From positions 1 through 43,355 of the forward strand of contig JAFWHD010000029.1 in the NCBI GenBank assembly GCA_017512085.1: a stretch of DNA of 43,355 nucleotides. The letters are read 5' to 3'. The notes beneath the pieces were generated by a model that did no database searches, was not told the DNA's origin, and was given only the letters and a program-made list of their open reading frames with translations. Origin of the DNA: Candidatus Saccharimonadota bacterium (GTDB lineage: Bacteria; Patescibacteriota; Saccharimonadia; Saccharimonadales; Saccharimonadaceae). The position numbers and the translations under genes were made by a program. This document shows positions 39,440 through 43,355 of this stretch, one piece after another (position 1 is the first letter of the stretch; every line of letters begins with the position of its first letter).

Positions 39440-39516
39440 TGGTACACCCAAGAGGACTTGAACCTCCAACCTTCAGCTCCGGAAGCTGACGCTCTATCCA
39501 ATTGCGCTATGGGTGC
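39440..39516 (-). tRNA. tRNA-Arg(CCG)
   Basis: GCACCCATAGCGCAATTGGATAGAGCGTCAGCTTCCGGAGCTGAAGGTTGGAGGTTCAAGTCCTCTTGGGTGTACCA. Confidence 0.95.
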
Positions 39517-39685: not shown

Positions 39686-39750
39686 AAAAACATTATACCA
39701 TAAAATTAGTGGGGGTTGAAATTTTTTCTACCCTATGCTACTTTTTTCGC

Positions 39751-41142
39751 ATGAAAAATTTTTTCTCTCGCCCCATCCATCAATCATTTTTCCTCGTCGC
39801 CATGAGCATCGGCATCATCGCAGGGACTATATTAGGCTTAGTTTTTCATATTGCATATTTCGCCTCGCCCATTTGGCTCGCTCTCGTTGTTTTGCTTTTT
39901 ATTTGTACCTATTTCAGGCCTAAATATGTTTTTCTCGTTCTTGCTCTCGTTGCTGGCTTTCTCCTCGCCTTTTTTCGCGTCGCCTCCGTCTTGGAAAATC
40001 AAACCCAGCCAGCAGTTTCGCAACAAACTAAACAAACCCAGCCAGCAAAAACTGCCGAAGAAACAAAAACCCAACTTCAGCCAGCAGGGAATCAAACCAC
40101 CGAAACTCGTGAATCCTGGCTCCTTACTTCTCGCGACTGGTTCGCTAATCGTATCCGCACTGAGCTTAGCTCTCACGAAGCCGAGCCTAGTCCTCACGAA
40201 AATGAAACTAACCTTGCCCCTCACGAAACCAATCCCAGTCCCCATGCAACTAATTCCAGCTCTCGCGAAGCCGGTCTCGCACTTTCTTATCTCCTCGGCG
40301 AAAAATCAGATTTAGATAAATCCACAGCCGAAAACCTGAGAGCTATTGGCCTCGTCCACATCGTTGTCGCCTCAGGCACCCACCTCTCTATTCTCGTCGG
40401 CGCCATCAGCAAAATCTTCAAAAAAATCTCCCGTCGTGTGAGTCTCCTCTTTTCCGTTCTATTCATCATCGTGTTCATGGCGCTCGTCGGCTTCACGCCT
40501 TCCATTCTTCGTGCTGGCCTCATGTCCATCCTCACCCTCATCGCCGCCTATTCTGGCCGAAAAATCGCCCCCTGGCGTCTCATTCTTCTCGTCGCCGCGA
40601 CCACTCTCGTCATTGATCCGACCTTCATCACGAATCTCGGTTGGCTTCTCTCTTTCGCTAGTTACACTGGCATTATGATATTAGGCCCCGCCCTCACGTA
40701 CTTCTTTTACGAGAAGGAAAGACTCCCCTTCCTCGCCTCCCTTCTCCTCACTTCCATCTCCGCCACCTTTCTCACTCTACCTATTACCTTATATTATTTC
40801 GGTCAAATCTCCCTCCTCTCACTTCTCGCCAATCTTCTCATCCTCCCGACTCTCCCGCTCGCCATGGCTCTCATTTTTGCAACCGGTCTCCTCGCTGGTC
40901 TCCCGCTCATTAGTCCGCTCGTCGCTTTCGTTACCGCGAAACTTCTCTCCCTCCACCTCGTCATCGTGGAGTTCTTCGCGGCCCAGACTAATTTCCTCAT
41001 CACCACCGACAGATACCAGCCCCAAGTATTCCTCCTCTATATCCCGATTTTACTCCCCTTCATCATTGGACTTATCCGTCATAAAGTGTTAAAATTAAAC
41101 AAAGTAGATTATATGGGAGAAAAATATGTCAGGACACAGTAA
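39751..41142 (+). CDS. comEC: ComEC/Rec2 competence channel (minimal form)
   Basis: LLGEK, GLVHIVVASGTHL, PSILRAGLM, GWLLSFAS, LANLLILP. Confidence 0.92.
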   Translation: MKNFFSRPIHQSFFLVAMSIGIIAGTILGLVFHIAYFASPIWLALVVLLFICTYFRPKYVFLVLALVAGFLLAFFRVASVLENQTQPAVSQQTKQTQPAKTAEETKTQLQPAGNQTTETRESWLLTSRDWFANRIRTELSSHEAEPSPHENETNLAPHETNPSPHATNSSSREAGLALSYLLGEKSDLDKSTAENLRAIGLVHIVVASGTHLSILVGAISKIFKKISRRVSLLFSVLFIIVFMALVGFTPSILRAGLMSILTLIAAYSGRKIAPWRLILLVAATTLVIDPTFITNLGWLLSFASYTGIMILGPALTYFFYEKERLPFLASLLLTSISATFLTLPITLYYFGQISLLSLLANLLILPTLPLAMALIFATGLLAGLPLISPLVAFVTAKLLSLHLVIVEFFAAQTNFLITTDRYQPQVFLLYIPILLPFIIGLIRHKVLKLNKVDYMGEKYVRTQ

Positions 41143-41827
41143 ATGGGAAACCACCAAACGTCAAAAAGCCGTCGTTGATGCGAAGCGCGGCGCTCTTTTC
41201 ACGAAAATAGGGAATCAAATCGCCATCGCCGCCCGCGCTGGCACGAATCCCGATATGAATCCGTCTCTCGCCATGGTTCTGGATAAAGCTCGCCATGCGA
41301 ATATGCCAAAGGCAAATATTGAGCGCGCCATCGCTCGCGCCGCCGATAAGTCCGCCGCCGCTCTCATTGAGGAAGTCTATGAAGCCTACGGTCCAGGGGG
41401 TGTTGGTATTATTATAGAAGTCGCCACGGATAACAAGAATCGCACCATGCCTCTCGTCCGCCACACTCTGGACAAATCTGGCGGCCGCATGGCCGATCCA
41501 GGCTCCGTCATGTTCCAGTTTAGCCGCCAGGGAGTCATTGAGATTACAGAAAAAGGCGAGGACGCCCTCATGGCCGCTCTTGATGCTGGCGCAAAAGACG
41601 CAGTAGAAGATGAAGCGGGGATTACTATCTATACTGAGCCATCCAGCCTCGCAAAGGTTCGCGATGCTTTGAAAGCCGCAGGCCTTGAGGTTACGTCTGC
41701 CGAGATGCGCTACGTCCCGACCAGTCGCATCCCCGTGGACGACGCTACCGCCGAGAAACTTGATCATCTCCTAGAATCCATTGACGACTTAGACGACGTC
41801 ACAAATATCTATACTAACGCCGAATAG
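41126..41827 (+). CDS. yebC: YebC/PmpR family protein
   Basis: MSGHSKW, NMPKANIERAI, YEAYGPGG, TDNKNRT, DLDDVTNIYTN. Confidence 0.96.
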   Translation: MSGHSKWETTKRQKAVVDAKRGALFTKIGNQIAIAARAGTNPDMNPSLAMVLDKARHANMPKANIERAIARAADKSAAALIEEVYEAYGPGGVGIIIEVATDNKNRTMPLVRHTLDKSGGRMADPGSVMFQFSRQGVIEITEKGEDALMAALDAGAKDAVEDEAGITIYTEPSSLAKVRDALKAAGLEVTSAEMRYVPTSRIPVDDATAEKLDHLLESIDDLDDVTNIYTNAE

Positions 41828-41860
41828 ACTCGTGGAAGAATCGCTTCATTAAAGAATTAC

Positions 41861-41898
41861 CAACCCCCCATCTAGAAACAGGTGGGGGGTTGATTTTT
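41861..41898 (+). terminator. Intrinsic terminator after yebC
   Basis: CAACCCCCCATCT / AGGTGGGGGGTTG followed by ATTTTT. Confidence 0.8.
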
Positions 41899-42070
41899 AG
41901 CTAGGGATGTGATAAGGTCATGGGCGGTGGTAAGTATCTTGCCGATATGGTGCTCGGGGTCGGGGTGGTTTTTCACTTTTGTGTTGACTATGGGCATCAT
42001 CTACCGATGCTAGATAAGTGGCTGAGGGTTCCCCTGTAGTTTAACGGACCAGAAGAAAGGAAAGTAGCCT

Positions 42071-42166
42071 ATGTTTAGAATAATGAGACTTACGATATTT
42101 CATATCGTAATCACAGTTTCTCTTGACTTAGGTAAACTACGCAAGAGAAATAGACATCGCCATTAG
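42071..42166 (+). CDS. 31-aa peptide MFRIMRLTIFHIVITVSLDLGKLRKRNRHRH, candidate type I toxin
   Basis: AGAAAGGA RBS 9 nt upstream; hydrophobic core plus basic tail; stop codon lies in a hairpin; convergent promoter downstream. Confidence 0.6.
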   Translation: MFRIMRLTIFHIVITVSLDLGKLRKRNRHRH

Positions 42167-42225
42167 GCGATGTCCTACCACTATTGACGAACCTAGGGTA
42201 TTCTAGCAAGCCTGGGTTCGTCTAT
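42146..42225 (-). ncRNA. Candidate antisense RNA 1 (overlaps peptide ORF 3' end)
   Basis: TTGCGT(42260-55)-17-TAATAT(42237-32) with extended TG; ends in GACATCGCC-TAAT-GGCGATGTC-TATTTCT. Confidence 0.6.
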
Positions 42226-42261
42226 ATTTTTATATTAGCACTTATGGATATAAAACGCAAG

Positions 42262-42341
42262 AGAAAAAAGCATCACCGCTAGGGTGACGCTTAACCACGG
42301 AGCGAGTCTAGGAAGTTCTAGTGAGCCTGGGCTCGCTTTAC
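42262..42341 (-). ncRNA. Candidate antisense RNA 2 (orphan, diverged)
   Basis: TTGCGT(42376-71)-17-TATCAT(42353-48); ends in AAGCGTCACC-CTAGC-GGTGATGCTT-TTTT. Confidence 0.6.
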
Positions 42342-42377
42342 TTTTTTATGATATCACTTATGGATATAAAACGCAAG

Positions 42378-42455
42378 AGAAATAGACATCGCCATTAGGC
42401 GATGTCACACACCATGACGGGTCCAGGGTATTCTAGCAAGCCTGGGTTCGTCTAT
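42378..42455 (-). ncRNA. Candidate antisense RNA 3 (orphan)
   Basis: TTGCGT(42490-85)-17-TAATAT(42467-62); same terminator hairpin as unit 1. Confidence 0.6.
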
Positions 42456-42563
42456 ATTTTTATATTAGCACTTATGGATATAGAACGCAAGCCCACCCAC
42501 CATCAGCCCAGCAAAATCCATCCCGAATAAAACCATAATTATTTACAAATACCATAAATAATA

Positions 42564-42705
42564 TGCTATAATATACTTGCGACATTTTGATTATTTCGCA
42601 TAGTCAAACATCTCGCCCGAAACATCATTTTATGACAGAGGAACTCGCTCGTGTCCGGATGATGTATCGGTAATGTATAAACATAATTAGAAAGGACACA
42701 TCATA
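42564..42705 (+). promoter_or_regulatory. Promoter and structured 5' leader
   Basis: TGcTATAAT at 42564-72; adjacent hairpins 42579-42616 and 42617-42670; AGAAAGGA RBS. Confidence 0.55.
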
Positions 42706-43355
42706 ATGTCTCGCGTACATAAGCCATCAGGCATTGTGCTACCTGTTTTGCAGGAAGCCAAATTTTGTCAATTCATTAAAAGTACTAGAAGTAAAAAGGC
42801 TAAAATAGGGAGTCCAGAGGTCCTTACTCACTCGCAAAAAAGCCCCCTCTATTCTTCTAGTACTTTTTGTGGGTTGATAGGGAAGAAGAAAAAATACACC
42901 CTCGCGGCCTTGGCCACCATCTTCAATCTCGGCCTCGTTGGTGTCGGCAACGCCTATGCTAGTAGTATAAGTATTTCACTTACTGGAAATGTAAATCTAA
43001 ATATATTAAAAGATAATACTAACCCTACCTTTGGTAAATCTACCACTCAAACAGCCACAGTCACCAGTGATCACTTTACTGGCTATACATTAACCATAGC
43101 TGGCTCTAATGATACTGGAAGATTAGTAGGTAGTAATGACTCTACTAAATATCTATCTTCTATCACTACTCCACTCACAGAATCACAATTTAATACAGAT
43201 GCTCATAATGACCAGTGGGGTTTCCTACCAGGCGCACTATATAATACTAGCACTTCCACTAAGGTCATGAACACTAACTACCAACCATCTCCTATCGCTA
43301 CTACTCCTACCACGATAGATGTAACGAATAGCCCCACTACTGGCGAAAACTACAC
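42706..43355 (+). CDS. Secreted/surface protein, truncated by window end
   Basis: Open from ATG 42706 to window end; signal-like KKKKYTLAALATIFNLGLVGVGNAYA; Thr/Ser-rich beta-type sequence ATVTSDHFTGYTLTI..NDQWGF. Confidence 0.8.
   Translation, partial: MSRVHKPSGIVLPVLQEAKFCQFIKSTRSKKAKIGSPEVLTHSQKSPLYSSSTFCGLIGKKKKYTLAALATIFNLGLVGVGNAYASSISISLTGNVNLNILKDNTNPTFGKSTTQTATVTSDHFTGYTLTIAGSNDTGRLVGSNDSTKYLSSITTPLTESQFNTDAHNDQWGFLPGALYNTSTSTKVMNTNYQPSPIATTPTTIDVTNSPTTGENY

What the first reader, a model, noticed from the sequence alone, without database searches (positions are those of the whole stretch)
42054..42491. Candidate type I toxin-antitoxin-like locus with a tandem array of three self-contained, diversified antisense RNA units
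Seen: an RBS-led 31-aa ORF (42071-42166) ends inside unit 1 of three ~116-bp repeats. Each unit carries a minus-strand TTGCGT-17-TG.TAnnAT promoter, with -10 TAATAT or TATCAT so the variation keeps consensus. Hairpin 1 is followed by a T-rich tract on the minus strand, and its unit-2 variant gives a G-U pair only on minus. Hairpin 2 (12 bp) is fully paired through G-U wobbles only on the plus strand in all three variants (GACGAACCTAGG, AGCGAGTCTAGG, GACGGGTCCAGG) and is followed by a T-rich tract on plus. Established: convergent 3'-overlapping toxin mRNA and antisense RNA, each with its own terminator, is the layout of type I systems such as txpA/RatA and bsrG/SR4. Inference: unit 1 is the cognate antitoxin. 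Units 2 and 3 are orphan antitoxins that keep only the peptide tail (RKRKKHHR*, RKRNRHRH*) and differ in the unpaired linker (CTACCACTATT, AACCACGG, ACACACCAT), like an RNA immunity library. I am not aware of such an array described in Patescibacteria, but could not search.
Basis: partly seen in the sequence, partly recalled or inferred. Interest (0 to 1): 0.9.

Follow-up and report, generated by a model that had tools for sequence, protein, structure and literature searches.

The report
New toxin–antitoxin-like family in gut Saccharibacteria
The three repeats are stacked copies of the tail end of a tiny mobile gene module that is widespread in one genus of gut Saccharibacteria and likely works as a toxic peptide held in check by an antisense RNA, a kind of system not found described for these bacteria, while the extra copies are likely interchangeable strain variants rather than an immunity library.

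Summary
In detail: a 31-aa ORF and three ~116-bp units, each with a convergent promoter and two hairpins. The module is larger than described (sense promoter, ~146-nt leader) and has three more copies in this genome. An RNA model finds it in 79 of 150 genus genomes and 0 of 150 order-wide draws. The peptides are under purifying selection. Of 70 peptide-first loci, 67 carry the antisense unit; 12 of 92 units have lost the ORF. Wobbles put hairpin 1 on the antisense strand and hairpin 2 on the mRNA. Covariation shows two long-range mRNA helices, 5' end with linker and a leader CUAG site with the hairpin-2 loop, which cross as a pseudoknot. Best reading: an undescribed type I toxin-antitoxin-like family. 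Units 2 and 3 are not remnants of foreign toxins. Conspecific contigs carry one to three units, and each type is fused to this same ORF in some strain. The linker varies but is paired in the mRNA. Toxicity and antisense transcripts are untested.

The parts
41820..41826 (+). 7-bp direct repeat (CCGAATA) at the yebC stop; left border of the module-bearing insertion
   Evidence: identical to 42523-42529; a contig in X10 joins yebC-end letters to 42523, an empty site (tables 7 and 8)
41861..41892 (+). terminator hairpin after yebC; its 3' end runs into the module's -35 box
   Evidence: YebC identified by Pfam
41890..41918 (+). predicted sense promoter TTGATT-17-TG.TAAGGT
   Evidence: same geometry in the C14, C40a and C40b copies
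41924..42070 (+). structured leader of about 146 nt (start inferred from promoter spacing)
   Evidence: 75% identical to the C14 and C40 copies; whole mRNA folds with z -4.3; family leader median 128 nt
41926..41932 (+). 5'-end motif GGTGGTA that pairs with the unit-1 linker (42176-42182)
   Evidence: MFE and MEA folds; cognate -9.2 against permuted -7.2 kcal/mol over 38 modules
42008..42014 (+). leader CUAG site (TGCTAGA) complementary to the hairpin-2 loop (42202-42208)
   Evidence: flanks covary in 63 modules, 113 of 126 Watson-Crick against 70 permuted; tree check
42071..42166 (+). 31-aa hydrophobic-then-basic peptide ORF, candidate toxin; SD at 42057-42061
   Evidence: 61-68% identical paralogues; pN/pS about 0.25-0.3; no family match
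42139..42260 (-). unit 1: antisense promoter (42260-42232), predicted ~80-nt antisense RNA (about 42226 to 42145) and terminator hairpin 1 (42153-42174); on plus, linker and mRNA terminal hairpin 2 (42186-42222)
42255..42376 (-). unit 2: complete predicted antisense cassette (promoter 42376-42348); an allelic 3' end, fused to the ORF in other strains
   Evidence: X7 joint 42138>42255 and X10 loose end; 20-nt perfect match to the C14 mRNA
42371..42490 (-). unit 3: complete predicted antisense cassette (promoter 42490-42462), 92% identical to unit 1; an allelic 3' end, fused to the ORF in other strains
   Evidence: X8 joint 42138>42371; X20 contig with unit-3 linker behind hairpin 1
42523..42529 (+). 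7-bp direct repeat, right border of the 703-bp insertion

Best explanation
[quoted passage not shown] Shown: a sense promoter motif, a conserved leader, a 31-aa ORF under purifying selection, a convergent promoter, a hairpin whose wobbles fit the antisense strand (its terminator), a hairpin whose wobbles fit the mRNA (its 3' end), and two covarying long-range helices in the mRNA (5' end with linker; leader CUAG site with the hairpin-2 loop) that cross as a pseudoknot. Inferred: the peptide is a toxic membrane-binding peptide. The finished mRNA folds back on itself, and this sets whether it is translated. The ~80-nt antisense RNA uses its single-stranded linker and CUAG loop to invade the mRNA 3' end, breaks both helices and gives RNase III a long duplex. 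Inferred for the array: the ORF tail and the antisense -35 box share ACGCAAG, so crossing-over there duplicates or swaps exactly one promoter-RNA-terminator cassette. The extra cassettes persist because antitoxin copies are harmless; unit 3 would also repress the resident mRNA.
For: Three more modules in this genome. R2 hits in 79 of 150 genus genomes. 70 of 92 inspected units have an SD-led 21-34 aa ORF ending at hairpin 1. pN 0.14 against pS 0.59 in a 21-member subfamily, pN<pS in 207 of 210 pairs. Peptide-first search: of 70 loci examined, 67 have the unit, 1 ends at a contig end, and the 2 without it also lack the native leader and start; 12 of 92 units lack the ORF start. Over 91 distinct units, hairpin 1 has 32 A.C against 8 G.U on plus, and hairpin 2 has 131 G.U against 6 A.C. 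Leader/loop flanks 113 of 126 Watson-Crick against 70 permuted; 8 of 9 disjoint closest pairs that differ at one position stay paired; the core itself co-changes in L204 and L124. An RNase III-like ORF lies on C17 (signature motif recalled). Strain contigs: X7 and X10 fuse unit-2 type to the ORF, X8 and X20 fuse unit-3 type, X6 skips unit 3, and X10 also shows an empty site. Similar junctions at the -35 box occur in G119 and G324.
Against: No toxicity or repression data and no stranded reads; the single RNA-library contig cannot show strand or transcription. Only 3 of 68 peptides reach an 18-residue hydropathy of 1.6, and 10 of 68 meet the published transmembrane proxy; the window's peptide meets both, barely. 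No match to any toxin family. Holding the CUAG site and loop out of the fold does not open the ribosome site consistently (11 lower, 11 higher, of 34), so what the pseudoknot does is open. An exact-match test of inverted leader/unit complementarity is only marginal (7.03 against 6.77; 1123 of 20000). Family members are related, so the permutation counts overstate. The strain evidence comes from assembled contigs in a repeat; the X8 joint shares 36 letters on both sides.
Confidence: 0.68

Rival explanations
1. RNA immunity library: the extra cassettes are selected and expressed to neutralise incoming allelic or paralogous toxin mRNAs, with the linker as the specificity toehold (anti-addiction).
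For: All three units keep an exact promoter. Differences cluster in the linker and the 5' arm of hairpin 2 (9 of 10 in 21 nt), and strains add further linkers. G316 copies differ mainly in the linker. G119 carries a unit of another peptide subfamily head-to-tail, with no matching full module among its R2 hits. Unit 2 has a 20-nt perfect match to the C14 mRNA.
Against: Each unit type is the resident 3' end in some strain. Hairpin 2 stays paired on plus, as a recent mRNA end would. Unit number is unstable. Only 3 stacked sites were seen among 143 distinct unit cores; the G316 extra unit has no promoter and the G119 one has off-canonical spacing. Unit 2 pairs better with the resident mRNA (-85) than with C14 (-69) or C40a (-59). 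No phage-borne cognate was found.
Confidence: 0.17
2. Antisense-regulated small-protein module that is not a toxin (a regulatory or surface-associated peptide), spread as a passenger of variable cassettes.
For: Most family peptides are too short in their hydrophobic part to span a membrane. Very diverse peptides share one RNA scaffold. Copies lie beside Fib_succ_major surface genes, tRNAs and housekeeping genes. About half the genus lacks a detectable copy.
Against: The loss asymmetry (units without ORF are common; no intact ORF without a unit among 70 loci) is what toxicity predicts.
Confidence: 0.11
3. The units are DNA-level repeats (recombination or integration sites, or bidirectional terminators) and the antisense promoter is incidental.
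For: The promoter pattern is this genus's ordinary promoter and gave mostly unrelated hits. Units flank cargo in G316 (CRISPR array, Fic gene).
Against: Strand-specific wobbles, covarying long-range RNA helices, purifying selection on the ORF, and a promoter at a fixed place behind hairpin 2 in 63 of 91 units by a strict pattern.
Confidence: 0.04

Closest known systems
txpA/RatA, bsrG/SR4 and bsrE/SR5 of Bacillus subtilis (PMC8464778, passages read)
   Same: Convergent antisense RNA overlapping the 3' end of a small-peptide mRNA, with an RNase III-type long duplex.
   Different: No sequence or family match; overlap about 80 nt rather than 114-123; peptides of 21-34 aa, mostly without a full transmembrane stretch; conserved CUAG leader-to-terminal-loop helix; stacked antisense cassettes.
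Type I modules beside CRISPR arrays in Clostridioides difficile (PMC5961336, passages read)
   Same: Hydrophobic N-terminus with a lysine-rich C-terminus, convergent overlapping RNAs, many paralogues; one genus member also flanks a CRISPR array (L113).
   Different: Those toxins are 50-53 aa with a predicted transmembrane domain; no homology detected here; the CRISPR link was seen in one genome only.
Fst/Ldr (par) family, e.g. Fst-Sm/srSm (PMC3543317 and PMC2887945, passages read)
   Same: About 30-aa peptide and a ~70-nt convergent RNA with its own promoter.
   Different: Fst antitoxins reach the start region through direct repeats; here direct repeats between leader and unit are at chance level, and the window's peptide has no tryptophan.
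timP/TimR and tisB/IstR pseudoknots (PMC11295053, main text read without the reference list)
   Same: A pseudoknot in a type I toxin mRNA, which an antitoxin could undo; as for timP, no simple freeing of the SD is predicted.
   Different: Those lie within the 5' UTR; here the helix joins the leader to the loop of the 3'-terminal hairpin across the whole ORF.
zor/orz antitoxin-only loci of E. coli (PMC11264685, section 9 and passages read)
   Same: Orphan type I antitoxins and loci with an extra antitoxin exist; an orphan was shown to be expressed.
   Different: Orz is divergent and targets the 5' UTR; no head-to-tail array of promoter-bearing allelic cassettes was described in what I read.

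Membership tests
Type I toxin-antitoxin system (class) | Small ORF under 60 aa that is really coding | tested here: met
   31 aa; conserved paralogues; pN/pS about 0.25; the X20 contig has 4 silent changes and 1 conservative change in the ORF
Type I toxin-antitoxin system (class) | Cis-encoded antisense RNA gene with its own promoter and terminator | tested here: met
   At sequence level only: promoter geometry, strand-specific wobbles, A-rich run before hairpin 1
Type I toxin-antitoxin system (class) | Antisense RNA is transcribed and represses the mRNA | not testable with these tools
   No stranded raw reads were offered for this stretch
Type I toxin-antitoxin system (class) | Peptide is toxic | not testable with these tools
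   Indirect only: loss asymmetry
Type I toxin-antitoxin system (class) | Transmembrane segment followed by charged residues | tested here: inconclusive
   The window's peptide meets the 10-of-15 proxy and folds as one helix in a low-information model (pTM 0.35); only 10 of 68 family peptides meet the proxy; median net charge +6
Type I toxin-antitoxin system (class) | Structured mRNA with 5'-3' long-distance pairing (PMC8594479 passages) | tested here: met
TxpA/RatA, BsrG/SR4 | Convergent 3' overlap | tested here: met
TxpA/RatA, BsrG/SR4 | Homology of peptide or RNA to the family | tested here: not met
   No Pfam hit above cut-off for 5 peptides; none in NCBIfam or PHROGs for 26 of 68 peptides; Rfam gives no hit on the array and only a sub-threshold hit in 20 loci
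Fst/Ldr (par) | Direct repeats shared by the antisense RNA and the translation start region | tested here: not met
   Longest direct repeat 6.58 against 6.57 permuted over 38 modules; CUAG flanks fit inverted, not direct, pairing
Fst/Ldr (par) | Conserved tryptophan after the transmembrane helix | tested here: not met
   No tryptophan in the three paralogues
Type III toxin-antitoxin (ToxIN-like; features recalled) | Repeat array transcribed with, and upstream of, a ribonuclease toxin gene | tested here: not met
   The array lies downstream and antisense, each unit has its own promoter, and the ORF is 31 aa
   No other cognate in the genome or in phages; both types are fused to the resident ORF in other strains

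The most novel reading that the evidence does not exclude
A genus-wide type I system of Patescibacteria whose mRNA is switched by a pseudoknot that ties the leader to the terminal hairpin loop, and whose antisense cassettes are collected head-to-tail at a shared -35/peptide-tail junction, giving cells a heritable set of linker-specific antitoxins against incoming alleles: an acquired RNA immunity built from antitoxins.
Probability: 0.17. Interest if true: 0.9.

Novelty: new variant of a known kind. Interest (0 to 1): 0.66.

Why it matters
A 2025 paper lists type I systems only from Proteobacteria, Firmicutes, Tenericutes and, newly, Cyanobacteria (PMC12390103, passages read). My searches found no paper joining Saccharibacteria with type I systems or small RNAs (0 papers; 2 unrelated; none on this group among those listed); subscription journals are not covered. 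This family would put many such modules (up to eight peptide copies per genome) into 0.7-Mb host-dependent genomes, where non-essential DNA is scarce. It also offers a covariation-backed helix between the leader and the 3'-terminal loop, a concrete, testable form of the unprocessed-mRNA switch proposed for txpA- and fst-like mRNAs. The window gives three natural antitoxin alleles on one mRNA for a direct specificity test.

Tried and rejected
BLAST-type DNA searches of relatives found only promoter-sized pieces. The TTCTAG-plus-promoter pattern hit 35 of 368 genomes, but most hits were ordinary promoters. The tblastn hit in a Treponema genome (L018) is chance, with no module anatomy. Metagenome and viral pattern scans, peptide scans and blastn of phages found no module. 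The search of protein representatives gave one 907-aa repeat protein, rejected. PDB gave one hit at E 0.38. The Atlas search could not be run. The Fst-like direct-repeat route was rejected. The idea that the pseudoknot frees the SD was not supported. My first impression that the peptides are beta-strand-like was not borne out by the one model made, which is all helix at low confidence. The RNA run X20 gives one 253-nt contig over the leader, ORF and hairpin 1 and no cover on either side within 41840-42600; lack of cover proves nothing and no silent control stretch was laid. X2 and X4 match the window without a difference and may be its source or one data set, so they are not counted as support. 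Weak R2 hits include plain terminator-plus-promoter sites (L064, L231, L236, L238), so the 79 of 150 count may be inflated at its weak end; the genome search also missed the second unit in G119, so stacked units may be undercounted.

Full report
Observation. The array scores 352 in Tandem Repeats Finder against 53-56 for the window's other five arrays. Rfam has no match on it. The neighbouring YebC is 82% identical to proteins named Candidatus Saccharibacteria. The genome is 0.70 Mb and 92% complete, and the laid runs are animal gut or feces metagenomes by their record.

The module is larger than the finding. BLAST of the region against the own genome finds two more copies, on C14 and C40, at 75% identity from a sense promoter (TTGATT-17-extended -10) through a ~146-nt leader, the ORF and one unit. 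A fourth, more distant module lies on C40. The peptides are 61-68% identical, with silent changes far above replacements (pS 0.55, pN 0.14-0.17 over codons 2-22). The 703 bp from 41827 to 42529 are bounded by the repeat CCGAATA, and a contig in run X10 joins yebC-end letters straight to 42523. The module therefore behaves as an insertion that some strains or close relatives lack.

A genus-wide family. A covariance model from the five own units hit 15 of 150 genus genomes. Rebuilt from 25 matches, it hit 79 of 150 genus genomes drawn at high completeness and 0 of 150 genomes drawn across the order, 149 of them from other genera. I inspected 92 units, chosen from the best hits. 70 have an SD-led ORF ending at hairpin 1; the 68 distinct peptides are 21-34 aa, with a short hydrophobic start and a median net charge of +6. 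Of the other 22, two are units 2 and 3, six have an ORF that my SD rule missed or lie at a contig edge, two look disrupted, and twelve keep only the peptide tail or nothing. No family library names these peptides (5 in Pfam; 26 of 68 in NCBIfam and PHROGs; PDB; representatives). Neighbouring genes are varied housekeeping and accessory genes (52 scanned), as expected of a small mobile module.

Which strand each part works on. Over 91 distinct units, with G.U and A.C scored alike, hairpin 1 has 32 A.C and 8 G.U pairs on plus, and hairpin 2 has 131 G.U and 6 A.C. Hairpin 1 follows an A-rich run (mean 6.0 of 8) and hairpin 2 precedes a T-rich run (6.1 of 10). The members are related, so the nominal p-value overstates.

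Two long-range helices in the mRNA. The linker pairs with the mRNA 5' end in the folds of C13, C40a and G201. Across 38 modules with a usable promoter and linker call, cognate duplexes average -9.2 kcal/mol against -7.2 +/- 0.3 permuted (0 of 20000). A CUAG site 30-75 nt before the start covaries with the CUAG in the hairpin-2 loop. In 63 modules (7 of 70 dropped for a missing motif or short flank), the two flanking positions are Watson-Crick in 113 of 126 cells against 70 permuted, with four and three pair types. The next pair is U.G in 47 of 63, which works only on the sense strand. The direct-repeat reading (antisense loop pairing the leader) is below chance. On a tree built without these columns, one position needs 8 and 10 changes on its two sides and only 10 jointly, and 8 of 9 closest differing pairs stay paired. 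The core co-changes too (L204, L124). The two helices cross, so they form a pseudoknot. Against over-reading: a crude exact-match test of inverted complementarity is marginal, and holding the helix out does not open the ribosome site consistently (11 lower, 11 higher, of 34).

Indirect evidence for toxicity. A peptide-only profile of one subfamily hit 59 of 330 genomes, with 105 matches. I examined 70 of them: the 30 returned loci and 40 fetched, including many weak ones. 67 have the antisense unit directly behind, 63 of these with SD and start. One ends at a contig end. The two without a unit have also lost the native leader and start, though L209 is a fused open frame with another SD. Units without ORF are common and intact ORFs without a unit were not seen, the loss order expected if the peptide harms the cell. 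The profile was built from unit-bearing modules, which may bias it. An RNase III-like ORF is present (motif recalled). Against: most peptides are too short in their hydrophobic part for a transmembrane helix.

What units 2 and 3 are. Unit 3 is 92% identical to unit 1, with 9 of 10 differences in 21 nt of the linker and the 5' arm of hairpin 2. Unit 2 has the C14-type peptide tail and a 20-nt perfect match to the C14 mRNA, but pairs best with the resident mRNA. Contigs from independent studies decide the point. In X7 the ORF runs into a unit-2 end (joint 42138>42255, 12 shared letters), followed by a new unit. In X10 it runs into a unit-2 tail, and a chimeric unit has a new linker. In X8 one 1037-nt contig joins the ORF to a single unit-3 end (36 shared letters, so collapse cannot be excluded). 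In the RNA run X20 a 253-nt contig has the unit-3 linker behind hairpin 1. X6 skips unit 3. Each unit type is thus the resident 3' end somewhere, which also explains why hairpin 2 stays paired on plus in the 'orphans'. ACGCAAG is both the ORF tail and the antisense -35 box, so crossing-over there moves exactly one complete cassette (inference); similar junctions occur in G119 and G324. Among 143 distinct unit cores, stacking was seen at three sites: here, in G119 (a unit of another peptide subfamily, promoter spacing off) and in G316 (no promoter). No cognate was found in phages.

Mechanism and odds. Most likely (0.68) this is a type I toxin-antitoxin-like module: a self-folding mRNA, an ~80-nt antisense RNA that invades its 3' end and triggers RNase III decay, and allelic antisense cassettes stacked by recombination and tolerated. 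A selected, linker-specific antitoxin library gets 0.17; a non-toxic regulated peptide 0.11; DNA-level repeats 0.04. Anatomy, conservation, covariation and strain variation are shown; transcription, toxicity, repression and the role of the pseudoknot are inferred.

Comparison with what is known. It works like txpA/RatA and bsrG/SR4 and resembles the C. difficile modules in peptide charge pattern, but no homology was found, so it is not filed as a member. It fails the Fst direct-repeat and tryptophan tests. Orphan and extra type I antitoxins have a precedent in zor/orz, and toxin-mRNA pseudoknots in timP and tisB, though within the 5' UTR. Papers seen: passages of PMC11264685 (plus section 9), PMC8309996, PMC8594479, PMC5961336, PMC10305079, PMC12390103, PMC8464778, PMC3543317 and PMC2887945; main text of PMC11295053; no supplements, so unseen tables (for example the T1TAdb genome lists) could hold members. 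Searches listed nothing on such a system in Saccharibacteria or on such an array. Earlier scan notes had no look-alike stretch.

Verdict. A real, undescribed family and a new variant of a known kind; interest 0.66. The family, its phylum and the leader-to-terminal-loop pseudoknot are the main result.

Noticed in passing
G000:C4:1280(+), C10:259(+), C29:1435(+), C35:26266(-), C35:8377(-): A second small-ORF family (27-31 aa, five copies) with a sense promoter, a short leader whose 5' end is complementary to a site ~75 nt past the stop, and a convergent promoter right behind the stop. It looks like a second type I-like system whose antisense RNA covers the ORF. A loose likeness to Helicobacter AapA peptides is recalled, not tested.
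   Followed up: partly
G000:C31:5821(-), C40:22231(+); L010:1601-1678 (G324, upstream of recA): A third small-ORF type (22-25 aa) with a strong SD and a convergent promoter behind the stop.
   Followed up: no
G000:C14:554-684 and C40:39704-39575; related pieces before the C4, C10, C29 and C35 ORFs; perhaps window 42768-42877: A ~130-bp palindromic element lies between Fib_succ_major surface-protein genes and several of these modules, possibly a cassette recombination site.
   Followed up: no
L113 (G316:C1:164500-168600): A full module, a CRISPR array next to csn2, an orphan unit, a Fic gene, a second full module and a promoterless partial unit follow one another, recalling the type I modules beside CRISPR arrays of C. 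difficile.
   Followed up: partly
G000:C40:2634-2800: The C40 module abuts tRNA-Val(GAC) and a duplicate of the tRNA's 3' end, an integration-scar pattern.
   Followed up: no
L112 (G195:C4:6553-7031): Two complete modules in tandem, 370 bp apart; deleting the second leader and ORF would give an array like the window's.
   Followed up: no
L087:230-1219 (G123): A reverse transcriptase (RVT_1) gene lies just upstream of a module.
   Followed up: no
L056:1400-1615 (G324): A unit with its own sense promoter and a short leader but no ORF: possibly a pair of overlapping non-coding RNAs.
   Followed up: no
window 39443-39516 (-) and 39709-41142 (+): A tRNA gene and a ComEC-like competence gene precede yebC; ComEC fits DNA uptake as a route for allele mixing (inference).
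   Followed up: no
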